From NCBI GenBank assembly GCA_040255465.1, contig JBDZVA010000002.1:346373-410372 (forward strand): DNA of 64,000 nucleotides, written 5' to 3'. A program made the position numbers and the translations under genes. Within the stretch, counting starts at the first letter, position 1; each line of letters begins with the position of its first letter. This document shows, piece after piece, positions 31,430-38,847 of this stretch. The notes beneath the pieces were generated by a model. It did no database searches. It saw nothing but the letters and a program-made list of their open reading frames with translations, and was not told the origin of the DNA. Origin of the DNA: Planctomycetaceae bacterium. Its GTDB lineage: Bacteria > Planctomycetota > Phycisphaerae > Phycisphaerales > UBA5793.

Positions 31430-31634
31430 CCATGCGAGGCTTAATACGCGGCAGGTGCTGGCGAGGCTGGGGATCGCCGCAGTGCTGTGGTTCGGCGGGG
31501 GCGTGGTGACGTCGCGGTTGCTGGGAATGGCGGCGGTGGATTCGGTCGCGTTCCTGCTGTGTCTTGGTGTGGTGTTCCTGCTGGGGTCGGTTTTCTTTGC
31601 CGCGGTGTATGGGCCCAGGGGCGAATCCGAATAA
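31422..31634 (+). CDS. Hypothetical 70-aa membrane protein
   Basis: Overlaps the previous ORF by 8 nt. Two hydrophobic helices (LGIAAVLWFGGGVV; VAFLLCLGVVFLLGSVFFAAV). Confidence 0.4.
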   Translation: MSSHARLNTRQVLARLGIAAVLWFGGGVVTSRLLGMAAVDSVAFLLCLGVVFLLGSVFFAAVYGPRGESE

Positions 31635-31644
31635 GGGAGACGTG

Positions 31645-32217
31645 ATGATCCCGGTGTTTATCGTTGGCTTCGTCGTGGTGCTCATTCCCGTGGTGTATTT
31701 CTTCGCGATCTACAATCGCCTGGTGAGCCTGCGTCAAATCGTGCGGGAGAGTTGGTCGGACGTCGACGTGGAACTAAAGCGGCGCTATGACTTGATTCCA
31801 AACCTCGTCAACACGGTGAGGGGTTACGCCGCACATGAAAGGGAGACGCTTGAGAAGGTAATCGCGTTGCGCAACGCCGCGGAAGCCAACCATGGAGACG
31901 TAGCGTCGCAGGCAAGCGACGAAAACAGACTAATGATGGGGGTAAAGCAACTCTTCGCGGTCGTTGAGAACTACCCAGAACTCAAGGCCGATGCTCACTT
32001 TCTCCAATTGCAGTACGAACTTGCCCTTACAGAGGACCGCATCGCAGCCTCTCGGCGATTCTTTAACGCGAATACACGCGAGATGCGGCAGCTATGCGAG
32101 ACCGTGCCGTCCAGCCTAGTGGCGTCGATTGCCAACATCCGACCTGGAACTTACTTCGAACTGAGCAGCGAAGCGGAGCGGGTGACGCCGCGGGTGGAGA
32201 TGGGGACGGCTCAATAG
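31645..32217 (+). CDS. LemA family protein (copy 1)
   Basis: An N-terminal TM helix is followed by YNRLVSLRQIVRESWSDVDVELKRRYDLIPNLVNTV and ENYPELKA, the LemA signature. It uses more A/T-ending codons than its neighbours. It starts 10 nt after the previous ORF. Confidence 0.85.
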   Translation: MIPVFIVGFVVVLIPVVYFFAIYNRLVSLRQIVRESWSDVDVELKRRYDLIPNLVNTVRGYAAHERETLEKVIALRNAAEANHGDVASQASDENRLMMGVKQLFAVVENYPELKADAHFLQLQYELALTEDRIAASRRFFNANTREMRQLCETVPSSLVASIANIRPGTYFELSSEAERVTPRVEMGTAQ

Positions 32218-33344
32218 GTGTTGTGCTTGCGAATTGCGGGCCGAGTATCTCGCAGCCGCGTGAACATGCTTGCGATGCGATCGCCGGTCCGGCCATCCCC
32301 GTATGGGTGGTTGCCGGACACGTCGTGATCCAGTACCTGCTGGATTGCAGTTTCGACGTCGTTTTGAGAGGCGCTCGCCGCGTCGATAGCGTTTGATGCT
32401 CGTTCGCGCCCTGCTTGACGAGGCCCGACGTTGACGACGCGTAGTCCAAGTGCCGCGGCTTCAATGAGGCCGGCGGATGAGTTGCCGATGAGAAGACTCG
32501 CTCGTTTAAGCAGGCCGATGAACTGCTCGCGAGGCAGGTGGGGGAGCATTCGGCGATCGCCGATGGCGCGGAGGATGGCCGGGCGGCCGGGGTCGTGGTT
32601 GGGGGCGCCGATGGCGAAGTTGCCTTCGAAGGCCGCATCCGTGGCAACAAGGATCGCCGACATCGTGTTGAACTCGATCGCGTCTTCGAGGCCGGTCGGG
32701 TGGTGGAGGACGATCGCAAAGTCGCGCGATGGGTCGAGATGCAGGGCGCGGAGTTGATCGTCGGTGAGCGGTTCGAACGATGCGAGGTCGTCGACGGCGG
32801 GGGAGCCGACGAGATGAATGGAATCTTCGCGTTCGCCCATTCTCCGGATGCGTTCAGCACTTTGCTCGGTGGCCGGGAAGTGGATGTGGGCGAGCTTGGT
32901 GATGGCGTGACGCATCGCTTCGTCGGCGACGCCTTCGGCCCGGTCGCCGCCGTGGACGTGGGCGACGAGGAAGCCGGCGACGCTGGCGGCGGAGGCGGCG
33001 GCGAAGGCTTCGATGCGGTCGCCGAGGACAAGCACGACATCGGGTTTGAGTTCATCGAAGGCTTGCGCGAGACCAGTGATGCCTCGACCGAGTGCGATGG
33101 CGTCGGCGGTGCGGCCGGTCTCGCCGGGCTGCTGCATGGAGATCTCTGCGGCGATGTCGAACTCGGCGGCGACTTCATTGCGCGTATTAACTTCGGGTAG
33201 CAGGTGGGCGCCTGTGACGATTACTTGCAGTTGAAGCGATGAGGTCGCGGCGATGGCGCGCATAATTGGGCGGAGCAGGCCATAGTCGGCGCGGCAGCCG
33301 GTGACGACGGCGATGGTGCACGAAGTAGTCGACTCGGTCATCAC
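32211..33344 (-). CDS. neuC: UDP-N-acetylglucosamine 2-epimerase (hydrolysing), NeuC-type
   Basis: VVTGCRADYGLLRPIM, VLGDRIE and HVHGGDRAEGVADEAMRHAITKLAHIHF match the NeuC/LegG-type hydrolysing epimerase. The start overlaps the neuB stop (ATGA). Confidence 0.85.
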   Translation of the reverse strand: MMTESTTSCTIAVVTGCRADYGLLRPIMRAIAATSSLQLQVIVTGAHLLPEVNTRNEVAAEFDIAAEISMQQPGETGRTADAIALGRGITGLAQAFDELKPDVVLVLGDRIEAFAAASAASVAGFLVAHVHGGDRAEGVADEAMRHAITKLAHIHFPATEQSAERIRRMGEREDSIHLVGSPAVDDLASFEPLTDDQLRALHLDPSRDFAIVLHHPTGLEDAIEFNTMSAILVATDAAFEGNFAIGAPNHDPGRPAILRAIGDRRMLPHLPREQFIGLLKRASLLIGNSSAGLIEAAALGLRVVNVGPRQAGRERASNAIDAASASQNDVETAIQQVLDHDVSGNHPYGDGRTGDRIASMFTRLRDTRPAIRKHNTY

Positions 33345-34387
33345 GCACCACCTTCGAGGTCATCAGTGGTGAGCGGTGTGTCGGCGGCGACGCTTCGTGC
33401 GAGTTTGCGGCCGGGCAGCTGAGTGAGCATTGCCGGGGGCAGGCCGGTGCCGGGGCGTTTGATGGTGAGGTCGTCGCGCGTGAGCGTCGCGCCGGCTTTC
33501 AATTCGCGCGTGATTGTGACACTCTGACGGCTGACGGTTCGCACATCCTGCTCGATCGCCTGCACCATGACGCGCGGCTCACCAAGCATCGATCGGGCGC
33601 GGCGGGCCTGCCCGACATACCGCGCAAACTGGCCGGGGTCGAGGGAAGCGGCGTGATCGGGGCCGCGCGCGGTGCGATCCCACGTGAGATGTTTCTCGAG
33701 CACGGTGGCGCCGCATGCGACGGCGAGAGCGCCGGTGTCGATCGAGGTGGTGTGGTCGGAGTAGCCGATGGGGATATCGCGGCCGTCGGCGGCAGTTGCC
33801 GCGAGTCGCGCGAGAGGGCCGATGCCGGCCAGTTGTGCGTTTTCATCGGGTGTGGGATAGGCGCTCACGCAGTGCAGCACGATGTGGCCGAATCGGGCGA
33901 GGGCGGCGGCGATTTCATCTGCGTTGGCGGCGCCGGTGCTGAGAATGAGCGGCTTGCTTGCGGCGGCGAGCGCTTCGAGCAGCGGGGTGTTGATGATGTC
34001 AGGCGAGGCGGTCTTGAGGGCATCCCACTGCAGTTCGGTGGCGAGGTTGGTGTGTTCGAGACTGAAGATCGAGACGATCGCGTGGAGATCGAGGGAGTGG
34101 GCGTAGCGGACGATCTCGGCCATGGCGTCGCGATTGAGCTGCAGGCCGCGAAGCATTTCGATGGGGTCGGTTTCACCAGCCTGCTGCTGGTAGGTCGCAA
34201 GGCGGCGGGCGCTGCTCATGAGCGATTCGGCTTCGAAGTACTGCACCTTTATGGCGTCGGCGCCGGCTTTGTGTGCCGCCTCGATGAGTTGCAGGGCGCG
34301 CTGGGTGGAGCCGTCGTGGTTGACACCGATCTCGGCGATGATGTAGGGCGGCTGGTCGCGGCCGATGGGGCGATCACCGATGCGCAT
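33341..34387 (-). CDS. neuB: N-acetylneuraminate (nonulosonate) synthase
   Basis: PYIIAEIGVNHDGS, GADAIKVQ, HCVSAYPTP and YSDHT, followed by a C-terminal SAF/antifreeze-like domain (LTRDDLTIKRPGTGL). Confidence 0.9.
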   Translation of the reverse strand: MRIGDRPIGRDQPPYIIAEIGVNHDGSTQRALQLIEAAHKAGADAIKVQYFEAESLMSSARRLATYQQQAGETDPIEMLRGLQLNRDAMAEIVRYAHSLDLHAIVSIFSLEHTNLATELQWDALKTASPDIINTPLLEALAAASKPLILSTGAANADEIAAALARFGHIVLHCVSAYPTPDENAQLAGIGPLARLAATAADGRDIPIGYSDHTTSIDTGALAVACGATVLEKHLTWDRTARGPDHAASLDPGQFARYVGQARRARSMLGEPRVMVQAIEQDVRTVSRQSVTITRELKAGATLTRDDLTIKRPGTGLPPAMLTQLPGRKLARSVAADTPLTTDDLEGGA

Positions 34388-35123
34388 AGCGTGTGGTCTC
34401 GGAAGCGCCGTCGCCGGCTGTCTCGGTGAGCATCAGTTGGGCGAGGAGGAAGTCCATGCGATTGTCGACATCGACGACTTCGCCGGCCTGGTTGTGTATG
34501 CCGCGCCGATCGGCGCCGAGAAAGGCGTGCGGCTGACCTTCGATCACGTGGTACAGATTCTCGCGGCGCACGGCGATCACGCCGCCATCGGGGATGAAGA
34601 GCGGTGGGAGATCCTGCCGTCGGTAGACGGTGTTGGCGACGTAGGGTTCAACGCGACCGGCCTCGTCGATCTTCACTTCCCAGTAGGGATGGTACTTGCC
34701 GACGGGCGCGTAGCTCTGCACGGAATCAGCGCCGGACTCGATGAGCAGCCGGACGGCGCGATCGATCAGGCCGAATGGTCGAATGGGCACATTGGCATAG
34801 AGGATGACGGCGAGGGGGGCTGCGTCGTCGAGCAAGGCGTGGCGGGCGGCGGCGTCGACGGTCGCGTGATCGCTGGCCAGTTCTGCGGGGCGGTCGATGA
34901 CTTCCACGCCTTCGTTTCGCGCCGCTTGAGCGACGTGCGGGCAATCCGTGGAAACCAGAACTCGGGTGACTGTGGAGGCGGCGCGGGTGTGGGCGATGGA
35001 GTGAACGACCATGGGGCGACCGGCGAGGAGCATGGCATTCTTGCCGGGCAGACCCTTGCTGCCGGCGCGGCCGAGGATGACGGCGGTGGCTTGCGGTTTG
35101 GTGTTGGACCGATGGTTGGTCAT
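34374..35123 (-). CDS. neuA: Acylneuraminate cytidylyltransferase (CMP-sialic acid synthetase)
   Basis: AVILGRAGSKGLPGKNAMLLAGRPMV is the CMP-NeuAc/KDO synthetase N-terminal motif. Size and remaining motifs are consistent. It overlaps neuB by 14 nt. Confidence 0.85.
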   Translation of the reverse strand: MTNHRSNTKPQATAVILGRAGSKGLPGKNAMLLAGRPMVVHSIAHTRAASTVTRVLVSTDCPHVAQAARNEGVEVIDRPAELASDHATVDAAARHALLDDAAPLAVILYANVPIRPFGLIDRAVRLLIESGADSVQSYAPVGKYHPYWEVKIDEAGRVEPYVANTVYRRQDLPPLFIPDGGVIAVRRENLYHVIEGQPHAFLGADRRGIHNQAGEVVDVDNRMDFLLAQLMLTETAGDGASETTRYAHR

Positions 35124-35139: not shown

Positions 35140-38100
35140 TCAGACGGCGCCGAGTTCGAGGATCAACGTGGGCGTGTCCCGGTCATCGATCTCAGAAACT
35201 CGCGTTACGCCTGCCTGCAGTGATGCCCACACTTCGGCGAGAGATTGGGAGTCGAGATCGACGATTGCCTGATCGTCGGGCTGGAGCCAGGCATGGTGGC
35301 CGACGAACGCCGCACCATTTGCCCGCACCTGCAGAATGCGACGGTTCATTTCATCGAGGGCGGCGGGCGGCGGGTCGAGCTGGATCGAGTTGTCGATGGC
35401 GGAACTGGGAACGGGATCGACCATCGCAGCGCCGGCGTAGTGCATCCATCGATCGATGAAGTTGCGCTGTTCATCCAGCGTGGCCTCGCAGCGCATCAGT
35501 CGCGGCACGATCCATGGGGTGACGAGCGCATTGGGGTTGCCTGCCCGCGCGCTGCGGCCGTTGATGAGGGAATCGACGCGCTGCCGCAGTTCGTCAAATC
35601 GATCGATCCCCATGACGGTCTGGTACGTCGGCGCCGTCTCGCCATGAACTTCAACGCTGATGACGTCGATGGGCAGGAGGAGCACACGGGTCGGATCACC
35701 AAACGCATCGGGCAGATCAGTGCGGACATGAATCGCAGCGCAGCCAACCTCTCGAGCGAATCGGAGGATTTCTTCGAATTGCGGATGGAGCAGGGGGTCG
35801 CCCCGGCCGCCGAAAGTGATCGCGAGATCCGAACGGGAGACGGCTTCGCGCAGGAATCGCCTTGCTACGTCGATGTCGATGTCCACTTGCGGATTGATCG
35901 CCGGAGACCAGAACGGCTCAGTCGAGCGGCGCGTGGTGAGTTCGATCTCGATCTGTTGAGGGAGGCCGTCGGCGGCCGTGGGGATGGCGTTCAGTGCGGC
36001 GAGAAGTTCCAGACCGCAAGGGTCCTTGCCAATCGACTCAAACGCGCGGGCGATGGTAGATGTGTCGGCAATGTACCTGCCGATGTGATTGCGGATTTCT
36101 GCGGGCAGTTTGACGCAGGCATCCTTGCTGGTTGGATCGAGTTGCGGCAGGCTGGGGATGTAGGAGAGCATCGAGCCGACGGTGAACTGGCGCACGCGCT
36201 GGGACATTTCGCGCATGAGCGACGCTTCGATCAGCACGCCGCAGAGGCCCGGCGGCGCCTGGGTGAAGACGAGCCGGTGGATTTCGGGATGTTCGAGGTA
36301 GCGGGCGATGAGCGCCCCGCAGCCGGTGGCGTCTGACCAGTCTACAAGCGGCCAGTCGGGGCCGACAACAACGACCGCGTCGAGATGCAGTTCGTCCATC
36401 GCCGCCGCCATGTGGGAGGGGGCGATGATCTCATCAAAGACGGTCATGCCGCCGATGCCGCCGCGCCACGACCAGTCACTCCAGCGACGGGCGGCGGCGA
36501 CGGCGCGGTGGGCGTCGTCGAAGATGGGACCGACAACTTCGCGAACCACAAGCGGACGGTCGATGCGGGACTGATCAAGGAACGACTGAATGTCACTGCC
36601 GCGCGGGACGAGGAGCACGATCGACTCGATGCGCCGGCAGCGGCCGAGGCGTTCGAGCGTGGCCTGCAGAGGCCAGCTGCTCGATCGGTTGTTCATCGGG
36701 CGATCGATGAGCAGTCCGCTTCGTTGCGGGTCGATGGCGATCATTGCGGCGATGCGGCGCGGCCCGGTGGCGGTCGATCCGGTGTCAGCCGACTGCGAGT
36801 GTTCCGTCTTTGCCGCCGCGCGCTCGCTGATGCGGGTATTGACTGACTCGCCGCTAAGAACGCGCAGGGCTTCGTTGAGGATTTGTTGTGTTTCGAGGCA
36901 GGCCTCGGCGAGCCAGCGAACGTTGGTCTGGTCGCGCTCCAGTTGCGCCTTCTGGCGAGCGAGTGGTTCGAGCGTCTCGGAGAGATCGAGTTTTCGATCG
37001 GCTTTCAGTCGCTTGAAGACGCCGAGTTGATTGACGAGGTTGACCAGATCGTGCAGGACGGCGAGGCGATCGACTTCTTTTTGGTTGGCCCGTATCTTCT
37101 GGAACAGGCGATTCATCGCCGCTCCATCGTGCTGATGCTCGAGCATCTCGCCGAGAATGCGATCCGTGTCACGGCTGACCTTTTCGAGACGCTGCACGTC
37201 GCTTCGCACGGACTCGAGTCGGCGGCTGGTCTGGCGCAGGCGATCGGCGTCGAGTCGCCGACGCTCGGTTGCGAACTCCGGCAGGGGAGTTGACGCGGCC
37301 TCGGCGAGCACTTCGTCGAGCGGTCGGACGATGGTGTGTTGCTTGGCGACGCCTCCGCCGGCCGCGTCGATGATGGTCTGCGGTGCGTTGCAGAAGTCGC
37401 GTTCGAACTGCGTGAGGTAGGTGCTCATCTGCTCATCGACGAGCATCGGTCGGCCACTCTGGCTGCGGGCGGGGCGCAGGTTCCGCTTCATGCGAGCCAC
37501 GCGCGACCATTCCATCATGTCGATCGTGTTGAAGGCATTGATCTCCGGCGCCCACTGGTCGTGAATCGCAGCGCCGGGGCCGTAGTAGAGGTTGTCCGTG
37601 AAGCCGAGATCCTGGCCGACCAGGACGATCGGATCGCAGCCGAGGTATTGTGCGAGATAGAAGCTCAAGTGGGCCACGGTCGAGCCGGCGGGGACGGAAC
37701 CCATTTCGCGCGCGAGTGGGCCGAGGAGTTTGTCGAGGAAGTTGTTGGCGACGCAGCGAATCGGGCCGGGATAGGACTCGACGACGATGCGGTTTACCTT
37801 GGCCTCGCAGACGAGAGTGATGTCGCGCAACTCTTCGGGATCGAGGCCGTCGTAGAACTGGCGACTGATTTCGTGGTAATCCAACGCCGTGACGAAGTGC
37901 GGCCGGATGCCGCGCCGCAGCAGCGGGCGCAGGCAGGTCTGCACGGCGATGATCACGACGCGCTCGCGCAGCGTTGGATCGGCCAGGAGTTCGTAGTGGC
38001 GCGACAGGCTAGGGCCGGCGGAGAGGAGCAGGGCGGTTCGACCGCTGGCGATGTTCTTGAGCAGCGCGATGCCTTCGCCGGCGGCGTAGTGATCCAGGTT

Positions 38101-38847
38101 CAGGCTCAGGTTGCGGCAGGTCGTGGATGAATGCACGAGCGTCGTGAGCATCGTGGTGCGGATGTTTGAGACCAGGTCGGCGAACATCTTGCTGAATCTG
38201 GCTGCCGCTTCACCCAGTCGGGCGCGGCTGGGGAGATGAGCTTCGATCGTGGTGCCTTGCGCCACGATGCCTTCGGCTCCCGCGAGCTGGACGGAGATGC
38301 CGGCGCGATCTTCGGGCTCGTCGGCGATGACGAGATTCGTCGCGTTGATCCACTCGGAGTGGTCAACTTGTTCAAGCACAGAGCGAAGCAATGCGACATC
38401 GGGTTCGAAGACAATGATCAGCCCTGTCTTGCGCATGGCCTGGGCGATTCGCTGGATGTGATAGCCCATGGCAAAGCCGAGCACGACGACGGTCGCATGC
38501 TGGACGATGTCGATCCCTTTTGCGAACCGATCCGCCTCATCGAGCGGTCGGTGTCGGCTGCACAATTGTGATCCGTGAAGCGAGAGAGCCGGAACCCCCT
38601 GCGGGGTCGGTGCGAACGCGCATAGCGTGGATGGGGCGATGGTTCGGATTCGCTCCACAAGCCGGGCGTTGTGCGGAGCGAGAGCCTTGAGATTGGCTTC
38701 GAGGATTGCTGTACTCACTCCACCCGCCACTTCGCTTGAGGGTCGTTTCCGGTTTCGGCATCGGTCTTGCTGTGGTATTATCGGAATCAAATCGCCGGAG
38801 ACTTGAGCCATGGATCTGCCAAGCGGCTCGCCGCTGATCGTGAACAC
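35140..38847 (-). CDS. Multidomain Maf-like (DUF115/MptE-like) putative nonulosonic-acid transferase fused to nucleotidyltransferase-like and radical-SAM-like (Cys-less) modules
   Basis: The N-terminal third (ILEANLKALAPHNARL..., ALLLSAGPSLS, IIAVQTCLRPLLRRGIRPHFVTALDYHE, VLVGQDLGF) matches the motility-accessory-factor/MptE-like pattern. A coiled-coil linker follows. Residues about 720-930 look like a GT-A/cytidylyltransferase-like fold (RRIAAMIAID..., IVLLVPRG). The C-terminus has radical-SAM-barrel-like strands (ITFGGRGDPLLHP, AIHVRTDL, VISVEVHG), but TTRRSTEPFWSPA occupies the place of CxxxCxxC. The start (38847 or 38811) is uncertain. Confidence 0.7.
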   Translation of the reverse strand: MFTISGEPLGRSMAQVSGDLIPIIPQQDRCRNRKRPSSEVAGGVSTAILEANLKALAPHNARLVERIRTIAPSTLCAFAPTPQGVPALSLHGSQLCSRHRPLDEADRFAKGIDIVQHATVVVLGFAMGYHIQRIAQAMRKTGLIIVFEPDVALLRSVLEQVDHSEWINATNLVIADEPEDRAGISVQLAGAEGIVAQGTTIEAHLPSRARLGEAAARFSKMFADLVSNIRTTMLTTLVHSSTTCRNLSLNLDHYAAGEGIALLKNIASGRTALLLSAGPSLSRHYELLADPTLRERVVIIAVQTCLRPLLRRGIRPHFVTALDYHEISRQFYDGLDPEELRDITLVCEAKVNRIVVESYPGPIRCVANNFLDKLLGPLAREMGSVPAGSTVAHLSFYLAQYLGCDPIVLVGQDLGFTDNLYYGPGAAIHDQWAPEINAFNTIDMMEWSRVARMKRNLRPARSQSGRPMLVDEQMSTYLTQFERDFCNAPQTIIDAAGGGVAKQHTIVRPLDEVLAEAASTPLPEFATERRRLDADRLRQTSRRLESVRSDVQRLEKVSRDTDRILGEMLEHQHDGAAMNRLFQKIRANQKEVDRLAVLHDLVNLVNQLGVFKRLKADRKLDLSETLEPLARQKAQLERDQTNVRWLAEACLETQQILNEALRVLSGESVNTRISERAAAKTEHSQSADTGSTATGPRRIAAMIAIDPQRSGLLIDRPMNNRSSSWPLQATLERLGRCRRIESIVLLVPRGSDIQSFLDQSRIDRPLVVREVVGPIFDDAHRAVAAARRWSDWSWRGGIGGMTVFDEIIAPSHMAAAMDELHLDAVVVVGPDWPLVDWSDATGCGALIARYLEHPEIHRLVFTQAPPGLCGVLIEASLMREMSQRVRQFTVGSMLSYIPSLPQLDPTSKDACVKLPAEIRNHIGRYIADTSTIARAFESIGKDPCGLELLAALNAIPTAADGLPQQIEIELTTRRSTEPFWSPAINPQVDIDIDVARRFLREAVSRSDLAITFGGRGDPLLHPQFEEILRFAREVGCAAIHVRTDLPDAFGDPTRVLLLPIDVISVEVHGETAPTYQTVMGIDRFDELRQRVDSLINGRSARAGNPNALVTPWIVPRLMRCEATLDEQRNFIDRWMHYAGAAMVDPVPSSAIDNSIQLDPPPAALDEMNRRILQVRANGAAFVGHHAWLQPDDQAIVDLDSQSLAEVWASLQAGVTRVSEIDDRDTPTLILELGAV

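What the first reader, a model, noticed from the sequence alone, without database searches (positions are those of the whole stretch)
32211..35123. Minimal neuC-neuB-neuA pathway paired with a Maf-type transferase
Only the three enzymes needed for UDP-GlcNAc to ManNAc to Neu5Ac to CMP-Neu5Ac are present. They are tightly coupled, with 14-nt and 4-nt overlaps. None of the dehydratase, aminotransferase or acetyltransferase genes of the pseudaminic or legionaminic acid routes are in the window. Maf-type transferases are classically tied to Pse/Leg flagellin glycosylation. A Neu5Ac-type donor with a Maf-like enzyme in a non-host-associated-looking genome would therefore be unusual. Alternatively the Leg-type upstream genes lie elsewhere, and these are LegG/LegI/LegF equivalents.
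Basis: partly seen in the sequence, partly recalled or inferred. Interest (0 to 1): 0.6.

Follow-up and report, generated by a model that had tools for sequence, protein, structure and literature searches.

The report
Flagellin sugar-acid operon in a planctomycete
A four-gene operon in a free-living Phycisphaerae bacterium makes an activated nine-carbon sialic-acid-like sugar and most likely attaches it to flagellin; the sugar is more likely legionaminic-type than true sialic acid, so this is a new example of a known system.

Summary
On the minus strand, maf (35140-38847), neuA-like (34374-35123), neuB-like (33341-34387) and neuC-like (32211-33344) form one tight operon, with a 16-nt gap and 14-nt and 4-nt overlaps.

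The window has no dehydratase, aminotransferase or acetyltransferase. The genome has all three elsewhere:
- a PglF-type dehydratase (C5:10080-11801);
- a DegT aminotransferase (C13:46964-48163), in a 99%-supported clade with aminotransferases inside other planctomycetes' nonulosonate clusters;
- a NeuD/PglD-family acetyltransferase (C5:834 kb).

Across 121 Phycisphaerae genomes the acetyltransferase co-occurs almost perfectly with Maf and NeuB. The epimerase and cytidylyltransferase sit among relatives from full legionaminic-type clusters. An AU test rejects joining the epimerase to true NeuC (p 0.0007). PseG was not found.

NeuB belongs to a Phycisphaerae-specific clade outside the canonical Neu, Leg and Pse synthases. 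It carries KxASPD where canonical enzymes have KIPSGE.

I read this as flagellin O-glycosylation with a legionaminic-type sugar (about 0.55), Neu5Ac second (about 0.25). Pairing Maf with Neu genes is already in the literature (Geobacillus). This is a new member of a known kind. The Maf/dead radical-SAM fusion was already found by this scan (e1-2392036).

The parts
35140..38847 (-). Maf-type nonulosonic-acid protein glycosyltransferase (residues ~1-620) fused to a cysteine-poor spiro-SPASM/radical-SAM-like module (~620-1235). First gene of the operon.
   Evidence: PF01973 MptE-like 116.5 bits at residues 248-418. Maf_flag10_N 25.3 bits when the N-terminus is scanned alone. The C-terminal half scores 0.95 in the Atlas to planctomycete SPASM/Radical_SAM clusters, with a weak TIGR04321 hit. 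It has no CxxxCxxC motif. It is the only Maf in the genome.
34374..35123 (-). CMP-nonulosonate synthetase (NeuA/LegF-like cytidylyltransferase)
   Evidence: PF02348 64.5 bits. PseF TIGR03584 scores only 79 bits against a cut-off of 205.7. Best solved relative is N. meningitidis CMP-Neu5Ac synthetase at 71.9 bits. In the tree it lies in a 22-row clade (99% support) that includes the NeuA of the L095 cluster, a full flagellar island with dehydratase and aminotransferase.
33341..34387 (-). Nonulosonic acid synthase of a divergent, Phycisphaerae-specific NeuB subfamily (KxASPD motif)
   Evidence: PF03102 201.5 bits plus SAF. Below both the NeuB (281/399.65) and PseI (208/340) equivalog cut-offs. 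Only NeuB-family gene in the genome. It sits in a 24-row clade (99% support) outside the canonical Neu+Leg clade. KxASPD replaces KIPSGE in 23 of 23 clade members.
32211..33344 (-). Hydrolysing nucleotide-sugar 2-epimerase (NeuC/LegG family). Last gene; its 3' end overlaps the convergent LemA gene (31564-32217, +).
   Evidence: TIGR03568 320 bits, above the 235.9 cut-off. Best solved relative is the A. baumannii GDP/UDP-diNAcBac 2-epimerase at 184.9 bits, against human GNE at 157 and N. meningitidis SiaA at 39.9. In the tree it falls in a 95%-supported clade with Leg-context epimerases. The AU test rejects union with true NeuC, p 0.0007. Single copy in the genome.

Best explanation
The operon maf-neuA-neuB-neuC is the conserved core of a protein O-glycosylation system in flagellated Phycisphaerae.

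Proposed pathway (all steps inferred):
1. The NeuC-like enzyme removes the nucleotide from a UDP-sugar and epimerises it at C2.
2. The NeuB-like enzyme condenses the product with phosphoenolpyruvate to give a nine-carbon nonulosonic acid.
3. The NeuA-like enzyme activates it with CTP.
4. The Maf domain transfers it from the CMP-sugar to Ser/Thr of the two 489-aa flagellins, which are encoded on another contig.

The donor is most likely a legionaminic-type 5,7-diacetamido-3,5,7,9-tetradeoxy sugar. Its precursor, UDP-2,4-diacetamido-2,4,6-trideoxyglucose, would be supplied by three unlinked genes:
- a PglF-type 4,6-dehydratase (G000:C5:10080-11801);
- a DegT aminotransferase (C13:46964-48163);
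- a PglD/NeuD-family acetyltransferase (C5:834002-834715).

This mirrors the UDP-based legionaminic route shown in B. subtilis.

Shown here: gene identities, operon structure, conservation, phyletic coupling and tree positions. Inferred: substrate identity, flagellin as acceptor, and all chemistry.
For: Operon and families.

Conservation:
- The four-gene order is conserved in at least 15 Phycisphaerae genomes.
- In the planctomycete G072 (L095), the same module lies in a flagellar island: fliC-fliD ... maf - spiro-SPASM - neuA - neuB - neuC - methyltransferase - x - PseB/PglF-type dehydratase - DegT.
- L092, L094 and L098 also carry SDR+AT(+Ac) next to neuC/neuB; L094 also carries three flagellin genes.

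Upstream genes in our genome:
- The DegT at C13 forms a 99%-supported clade with the L092 and L095 cluster aminotransferases.
- The acetyltransferase passes TIGR03570 (197 bits against 160.8). It groups, weakly, with L091/L094/L097 and not with the NeuD clade of E. coli, Pasteurella, Haemophilus and Streptococcus.

Phyletic pattern in 121 class genomes:
- NeuB and the acetyltransferase: both present in 58, neither in 47.
- The 7 NeuB-only genomes are 5 with weak paralogs and 2 MAGs that are 73-80% complete.
- Maf has the same family-level distribution.
- Every genome with a Maf ortholog has flagellin (one further genome, G393, has only a weak 30%-identity Maf match and no flagellin). Their flagellins are about 480-600 aa, against about 280 aa in the Maf-less families f6 and f102.
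- In family f104, only G304 and G391 have flagellin. They are also the only two with Maf, the PglF-like dehydratase and a clade-type NeuB, and two of the three with the acetyltransferase and a close DegT.

Trees and other tests:
- NeuC and NeuA positions.
- AU test against true NeuC.
- PseG not found.
- Flagellin central regions are 20-33% Ser+Thr.
- A UDP-based Leg pathway starting from a PglF-type dehydratase is documented in B. subtilis (PMC7439481).
Against: - Only C, B and A are kept with maf across the whole class. That is what a pathway starting directly from UDP-GlcNAc (Neu5Ac) would look like.
- The PglF-like dehydratase and the DegT ortholog are nearly universal in the class, including NeuB-less families f6, f7 and f109. 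Their presence is therefore not specific to this pathway.
- The acetyltransferase family also contains sialate O-acetyltransferases (NeuD). Its tree placement has only 80% support.
- True Neu enzymes are nested inside Leg-context clades, so specificity can switch within a clade.
- NeuB is highly divergent: Glu134 to Asp and Gly to Pro, below all equivalog cut-offs. Its substrate cannot be read from sequence.
- Nothing was measured chemically.
- The AU groups were named after the tree was seen.
Confidence: 0.55

Rival explanations
1. True sialic acid pathway. NeuC hydrolyses and epimerises UDP-GlcNAc to ManNAc, NeuB makes Neu5Ac, NeuA makes CMP-Neu5Ac, and Maf puts Neu5Ac directly on flagellin Ser/Thr. 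The unlinked NeuD-family acetyltransferase would then O-acetylate the sialic acid.
For: - The class-wide conserved operon contains exactly the three Neu enzymes and nothing else.
- The best solved relative of the cytidylyltransferase is CMP-Neu5Ac synthetase.
- The dehydratase and aminotransferase occur regardless of NeuB.
- NeuD-family proteins accompany true Neu clusters, as in E. coli K1, L124, L125 and L127.
- Maf enzymes can transfer Neu5Ac, and a Neu-only neighbourhood was proposed for Geobacillus.
- A Roseburia locus shows Fla-Fla-Maf-B-C-A with no SDR or AT within 8 kb.
Against: - The epimerase is separated from the true NeuC clade by several supported branches, and the AU test rejects their union, p 0.0007.
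- Its best solved relative is a diNAcBac 2-epimerase.
- NeuA and NeuC share clades with enzymes from clusters that carry dehydratase and aminotransferase genes.
- The acetyltransferase is not in the NeuD clade.
- NeuB lacks the KIPSGE motif that all five true-Neu references keep.
Confidence: 0.25
2. A different, possibly undescribed nonulosonic acid. The divergent KxASPD synthase clade would accept another 2-acetamido or 2,4-diacetamido hexose, for example another stereoisomer or acyl variant, giving neither Leg5Ac7Ac nor Neu5Ac.
For: - The NeuB clade lies outside canonical Neu+Leg and even outside the two true PseI references.
- It scores below every equivalog cut-off.
- The specificity and catalytic loop is changed in all 23 clade members.
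- At NmNeuB position 184 it has Ser, the state reported for Pse enzymes, while its position-132 equivalent is neither Gly nor Phe.
- Related islands carry extra tailoring genes: a methyltransferase and a real radical-SAM spiro-SPASM enzyme.
Against: - NeuC and NeuA are ordinary members of their families and are orthologous to those of Leg-context clusters.
- No extra tailoring enzyme is in this operon.
- The radical-SAM-like module has lost its cluster cysteines.
- Sequence divergence alone does not show new chemistry.
Confidence: 0.12
3. The sugar is made as described, but the acceptor is not flagellin. It could be a surface protein, a pilin or a polysaccharide.
For: - The operon is on a different contig from the flagellar genes.
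- Its neighbours are secreted or membrane proteins of unknown function.
- The acetyltransferase's position near the flagellar cluster is not conserved in relatives.
Against: - Every genome with a Maf ortholog has flagellin, and these genomes have the long flagellins.
- In G072, G221 and other phyla the same module sits beside flagellin genes.
- Maf proteins are known only as flagellin glycosyltransferases.
Confidence: 0.08

Closest known systems
Maf-dependent flagellin glycosylation with legionaminic acid (Campylobacter jejuni/coli LegB-C-H-G-I-F with Maf4; Clostridium botulinum)
   Same: It has a Maf transferase, a NeuC-type hydrolysing epimerase, a NeuB-type synthase and a CMP-transferase. 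A dehydratase, an aminotransferase and an acetyltransferase are present in the genome. The epimerase and cytidylyltransferase group with Leg-context enzymes.
   Different: The upstream genes are unlinked and are PglF/PglE/PglD-like, implying a UDP route. No LegB or LegC passes its cut-off. The synthase lies outside the canonical LegI clade. Maf is fused to a dead radical-SAM-like module. The host is a free-living planctomycete.
Bacillus subtilis sps legionaminic acid pathway (SpsM-C-D-G-E-F; PMC7439481)
   Same: It is a UDP-based route that starts with a PglF-type dehydratase. SpsE is one of the two best solved relatives of this NeuB (137.7 bits) and shares the K-x-A-S start of the loop motif.
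   Different: SpsE has Tyr-Glu where this protein has Pro-Asp. The sps pathway uses SpsG rather than a NeuC-type epimerase. Its sugar goes to the spore crust, not via Maf to flagellin.
Geobacillus kaustophilus Maf with neighbouring Neu5Ac genes (bioRxiv 10.1101/2020.06.03.131540)
   Same: Maf is paired with what looks like a Neu-only donor pathway. Direct Ser/Thr-O-sialylation was shown in E. coli.
   Different: The native sugar is unproven there too. One genome that paper lists, Caenibacillus caldisaponilyticus B157, has SDR+AT+Ac genes in the same cluster in my context scan (L195). Here the phylogeny argues against true NeuC.
E. coli K1 / Pasteurellaceae / Streptococcus neuDBAC sialic acid clusters
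   Same: They share the same three enzyme families plus a NeuD-family acetyltransferase somewhere in the genome.
   Different: NeuB identity is about 33%. The KIPSGE motif is not kept. NeuC is in a different, AU-separated clade. There is no polysialyltransferase or capsule export machinery.

Membership tests
NeuB-family nonulosonic acid synthase (PF03102 + SAF) | NeuB TIM-barrel domain plus C-terminal SAF/antifreeze-like domain above Pfam thresholds | tested here: met
   PF03102 201.5 bits (cut-off 22.1) and PF08666 43.9 bits (cut-off 21).
NeuB-family nonulosonic acid synthase (PF03102 + SAF) | Metal-binding His residues (SDH and EKH motifs) and the PEP-binding Lys of the K-I-x-S-G-E loop | tested here: met
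   YSDHT, EKHLT and the Lys are conserved in the alignments.
N-acetylneuraminate synthase equivalog (TIGR03569, canonical NeuB/LegI) | Score above the curated equivalog cut-off; catalytic Glu134 and the Gly of the S-G-E loop | tested here: not met
   281 bits against a cut-off of 399.65. The loop is A-S-P-D, with Glu changed to Asp and Gly to Pro, in 23 of 23 clade members. It lies outside the 81-row canonical clade.
Pseudaminic acid pathway (PseB/C/H/G/I/F) | PseI equivalog, the Phe of K-I-A-S-F-E, and PseG hydrolase present | tested here: not met
   PseI 208 bits against a cut-off of 340. Pro stands where PseI has Phe. PseG TIGR03590 has no match in the genome, which is 95% complete. A NeuC-type epimerase is present instead.
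Hydrolysing UDP-sugar 2-epimerase NeuC/LegG (TIGR03568) | Score above the equivalog cut-off over the full length | tested here: met
   320 bits against 235.9, model positions 3-364.
True NeuC (UDP-GlcNAc-specific, Neu5Ac pathway) clade | Groups with epimerases from verified or typical Neu clusters (E. coli K1, Pasteurella, Haemophilus, Streptococcus) | tested here: not met
   It lies in a separate 95%-supported clade. The constrained tree is 134 log-likelihood units worse, AU p 0.0007. Caveat: the groups were named after the tree was seen.
CMP-nonulosonate synthetase (PF02348 CTP_transf_3) | Cytidylyltransferase domain above the Pfam threshold | tested here: met
   64.5 bits against 22.6. No equivalog is passed: PseF scores 79 against 205.7.
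Maf flagellin nonulosonic acid glycosyltransferase | MptE-like/Maf_flag10 catalytic domain with the Maf N-terminal domain | tested here: met
   PF01973 116.5 bits against 34.6. PF20157 25.3 bits against 23.5 when the N-terminus is scanned alone. Catalytic residues were not mapped here.
Maf flagellin nonulosonic acid glycosyltransferase | Flagellin is the acceptor | not testable with these tools
   Only indirect support. Every genome with a Maf ortholog has flagellin, these genomes carry the long flagellins, and relatives show linkage to flagellin genes.
Legionaminic acid pathway (upstream half) | 4,6-dehydratase, C4 aminotransferase and N-acetyltransferase able to make nucleotide-diNAcBac | tested here: inconclusive
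   All three families are present but unlinked. PF02719 scores 350 bits. The DegT is below the PseC and LegC cut-offs, yet forms a 99% clade with cluster-embedded aminotransferases. TIGR03570 is passed. LegB TIGR04180 is not passed. Activities are unknown.

The most novel reading that the evidence does not exclude
The Phycisphaerae-wide KxASPD synthase clade could make either a previously undescribed nonulosonic acid or genuine Neu5Ac. In either case the sugar would be natively O-linked to flagellin in free-living marine or soil planctomycetes. It would be delivered by a Maf that needs a catalytically dead radical-SAM-like partner.
Probability: 0.3. Interest if true: 0.6.

Novelty: new member of a known kind. 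Interest (0 to 1): 0.35.

Why it matters
Nonulosonic acids on flagella are mostly studied in pathogens. This result shows a conserved, vertically inherited Maf-NulO module across a whole class of environmental planctomycetes. Its presence tracks flagella, and specifically the long flagellins.

The locus also illustrates why 'minimal neuCBA' clusters should not be read as Neu5Ac pathways without searching the rest of the genome. Planctomycete pathways are scattered, and the committed upstream genes can be megabases away.

The divergent KxASPD synthase clade is a defined, testable target for enzymologists interested in specificity within the NeuB family.

Tried and rejected
Contexts were obtained through the genome search and the fetch from genomes instead.

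2. Sequences of solved structures could not be imported. Characterised C. jejuni, L. pneumophila and A. baumannii enzymes are therefore not in my trees. The references are E. coli K1 plus loci labelled by gene context.

3. The first alignment for the genome-contig scan was too diverse. A narrower alignment returned only canonical NeuB relatives.

4. Active-site rules from Vibrionaceae (PMC7371886: Gly vs Phe at position 132; Asn/Tyr/Ser at 184) gave a mixed, uninformative answer for this protein.

5. PDB bit scores for NeuB do not discriminate: SpsE 137.7, NmNeuB 137.5, PseI 111.

6. I tested whether the acetyltransferase's position, about 3.5 kb from flgF, is conserved. It is not. Only an unknown 200-aa gene, MqnA and an HTH protein are syntenic with it. 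The Atlas gave no function for the 200-aa partner.

7. The presence of DegT and PglF as an argument for Leg is weakened, because both are near-universal in the class.

8. The epimerase gene next to the flagellins (C5:852 kb) is a generic GalE-like SDR, not a pse or leg gene.

9. No sigma-70-like promoter and no convincing terminator was found around the operon.


Full report
**What is there**

The window is G000:C9:346373-410372 of a 4.55-Mb, 63% GC genome in 16 contigs. Close NeuB homologues in public data are named Phycisphaerales or Planctomycetota.

Four minus-strand ORFs with strong GC3 bias lie head to tail.
- 35140-38847, 1235 aa: MptE-like/Maf.
- 34374-35123, 249 aa: CTP_transf_3.
- 33341-34387, 348 aa: NeuB plus SAF.
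- 32211-33344, 377 aa: Epimerase_2. It passes the NeuC_NnaA equivalog at 320 bits against 235.9.

The junctions read directly are a 16-nt gap, a 14-nt overlap and a 4-nt GTGA overlap. A convergent LemA gene overlaps the 3' end of neuC. A plus-strand NTF2-like gene separates maf from the next minus-strand ORF. The unit is therefore four genes.

**Is the pathway really minimal?**

It is minimal inside the window but not in the genome. NeuB, NeuC and Maf are each single-copy, and PseG was not found. The genome also holds:
- one PglF/CapD-type 574-aa dehydratase at C5:10080-11801 (PF02719 350 bits);
- two DegT aminotransferases, at C9:570 kb and C13:47 kb, both below the PseC and LegC cut-offs;
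- one acetyltransferase that passes the NeuD/PglB/VioB family model, at C5:834002-834715 (197 bits against 160.8).

No LegB equivalog is present. Two 489-aa flagellins lie at C5:845-852 kb with FlgL, FliW and CsrA.

**Relatives**

A scan of 301 Planctomycetota genomes found NeuB-family genes in 114, including all 10 same-order genomes. Gene contexts were read by tblastn with probes from this genome, from E. coli K1 UTI89 and from a Priestia pse cluster.
- maf-neuA-neuB-neuC alone recurs in at least 15 Phycisphaerae genomes from several families.
- Other planctomycetes keep the same module next to upstream genes.
- L095 (G072) reads fliC, fliD, maf, a genuine spiro-SPASM radical-SAM gene, neuA, neuB, neuC, a methyltransferase, an unknown gene, a PseB/PglF-type dehydratase and a DegT aminotransferase.
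- L092 reads AT-SDR-Ac-neuC-neuB.
- L094 has AT, SDR, neuC, neuB, neuA, Ac and three flagellin genes.

**Named references**

By context, most are SDR-AT-Ac-B-C-A, the classical legionaminic layout.

A small group (E. coli K1, Pasteurella testudinis, a Haemophilus MAG, a Gastranaerophilales MAG and Streptococcus azizii) is Ac-B-A-C or B-C-Ac-A with no SDR or AT. I used these as true-Neu references.

**Trees (IQ-TREE quick, LG+G4, SH-aLRT support)**

- NeuB: our protein sits in a 24-row Phycisphaerae clade (99% support). The clade is outside the 81-row canonical clade (99%) that holds both true-Neu and Leg-context synthases. It is even outside the two true PseI references. Planctomycete Leg-context rows form a grade in between.
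- NeuC: our epimerase lies in a 24-row clade (95%) with L092, L095, a Halorussus plasmid gene and a Rhodobacteraceae plasmid gene. The true NeuC clade (100%) is nested far away. Forcing the two together costs 134 log-likelihood units, AU p 0.0007. The groups were chosen after the tree was seen.
- NeuA: the Phycisphaerae clade (99%) contains L095's NeuA and is surrounded by Leg-context enzymes.
- Aminotransferase: the C13 DegT forms a 99% clade with the cluster-embedded aminotransferases of L092 and L095.
- Acetyltransferase: ours groups with L091, L094, L097 and a plasmid gene at only 80% support. It is not in the NeuD clade.

Solved structures agree in direction. The epimerase's best hit is the A. 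baumannii GDP/UDP-diNAcBac 2-epimerase (184.9 bits), against GNE at 157 and SiaA at 39.9.

**Phyletic profiles in 121 Phycisphaerae genomes**

| Gene | Genomes with a match |
|---|---|
| NeuB | 65 |
| NeuD/PglD-family acetyltransferase | 67 |
| Maf | 60 |
| Flagellin | 92 |
| PglF-like dehydratase | 105 |
| DegT ortholog | nearly all |

- NeuB and the acetyltransferase: both present in 58 genomes, neither in 47. Of the 7 NeuB-only genomes, 5 carry weak paralogs at 36% identity or less, and 2 are MAGs that are 73-80% complete.
- Maf has the same family-level distribution as NeuB.
- Every genome with a Maf ortholog has flagellin; G393, with only a weak 30%-identity Maf match, has none. Their flagellin ORFs are about 480-600 aa. 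The Maf-less but flagellated families f6 and f102 have flagellins of about 280 aa. This fits glycosylation of the variable middle domain.
- Our own flagellins are 20-33% Ser+Thr in that region.
- The dehydratase and the DegT ortholog are nearly universal, including in NeuB-less families, and are often adjacent to each other. They are available to the pathway but not specific to it.
- In family f104, flagellin, Maf and the PglF-like dehydratase were found only in G304 and G391. These two also carry a clade-type NeuB, the acetyltransferase and a close DegT ortholog.

Related genomes are not independent, so these counts are descriptive only.

**Interpretation**

A Pse pathway is excluded: PseG was not found, a NeuC-type epimerase is present, and the Phe of PseI is missing.

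Between Leg and Neu the evidence leans to a legionaminic-type donor made by a UDP route like that of B. subtilis (PMC7439481), with the upstream genes dispersed as is usual in planctomycetes.

It is not decisive, for four reasons:
- the operon's conserved content is what a Neu pathway would look like;
- the acetyltransferase family includes sialate O-acetyltransferases;
- true Neu enzymes are nested within Leg-context clades, so specificity can switch;
- NeuB is so divergent that its substrate cannot be inferred.

NeuB has KxASPD instead of KIPSGE, meaning catalytic Glu134 is changed to Asp and the Gly/Phe specificity position to Pro, in 23 of 23 clade members.

My odds are 0.55 for Leg-type, 0.25 for Neu5Ac and 0.12 for another sugar. 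I put about 0.85 on flagellin as the acceptor.

**Comparison with the literature**

Pairing Maf with Neu5Ac is not new. Khairnar et al. predicted it for Geobacillus kaustophilus and other bacilli from gene neighbourhood, and showed Ser/Thr-O-Neu5Ac in E. coli. One of the genomes they list, Caenibacillus caldisaponilyticus B157, has SDR, AT and Ac genes in the same cluster in my scan (L195). This underlines how easily such clusters are misread.

**The Maf protein**

Its C-terminal half resembles spiro-SPASM/radical-SAM proteins (Atlas 0.95, weak TIGR04321) but has no CxxxCxxC motif and few cysteines. In most relatives the two halves are separate adjacent genes. An earlier follow-up in this scan (e1-2392036) reached the same reading.

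**Verdict**

This is a real, conserved operon and a new member of a known kind of system. Interest is moderate to low, apart from the divergent synthase clade.

Noticed in passing
window 35140-36990 (C-terminal half of the Maf ORF): The Maf protein is fused to a spiro-SPASM/radical-SAM-like module with no CxxxCxxC motif and few cysteines. In most relatives the two halves are separate adjacent genes. In G072 the partner is a genuine radical-SAM protein (TIGR04321, 187 bits). Already reported by this scan as e1-2392036.
   Followed up: partly
window 33341-34387; loci L079-L087, L104-L123: All 23 Phycisphaerae-clade NeuB proteins carry K-x-A-S-P-D where canonical Neu/Leg synthases have K-I-P/G-S-G-E and PseI has K-I-A-S-F-E. 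The catalytic Glu is Asp, and the Gly/Phe specificity position is Pro.
   Followed up: partly
class scan, (for example G222:C9:47943, G206:C67:108549 against G000:C5:848786): Flagellin length tracks Maf presence. Maf-less flagellated families (f6, f102) have flagellin ORFs of about 275-297 aa. Genomes with Maf have about 480-600 aa.
   Followed up: partly
G000:C5:834624-835226 (L045:14625-15227, minus strand): An unknown 200-aa planctomycete-specific protein lies immediately upstream of, and co-directional with, the NeuD/PglD-family acetyltransferase. The pair is syntenic in several same-order genomes. It has no Pfam, NCBIfam or named Atlas family.
   Followed up: partly
L195 (Caenibacillus caldisaponilyticus B157, NZ_BDDQ01000002.1): This genome is listed in the literature as a candidate for flagellin O-sialylation. 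Its cluster reads Fla-Fla-Maf-SDR-AT-NeuC-NeuB-Ac-NeuA, a legionaminic-type context rather than a Neu-only one.
   Followed up: no
L139 (uncultured Roseburia MAG, CANSSP010000008.1): It has a second 'minimal' layout, Fla-Fla-Maf-NeuB-NeuC-NeuA, with no dehydratase or aminotransferase within 8 kb. This is in a gut Firmicute, and its NeuB is in the canonical clade.
   Followed up: no
L095:11861-16486 (G072): The flagellar glycosylation island carries a SAM methyltransferase, an unknown 375-aa protein and a SagB-type dehydrogenase beside the dehydratase and aminotransferase. These are possible sugar-tailoring genes.
   Followed up: no
window 31564-32217 (+) against 32211-33344 (-): The LemA gene and neuC converge and overlap by 7 nt at their 3' ends. 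No terminator-like hairpin was found between them.
   Followed up: no
class scans, (for example G349:C67:2035-4733, G374:C155:25264-27859): The PglF-like dehydratase and the DegT ortholog are adjacent in many Phycisphaerae genomes and occur even where NeuB, Maf and the acetyltransferase are missing. They must serve another glycan as well.
   Followed up: partly
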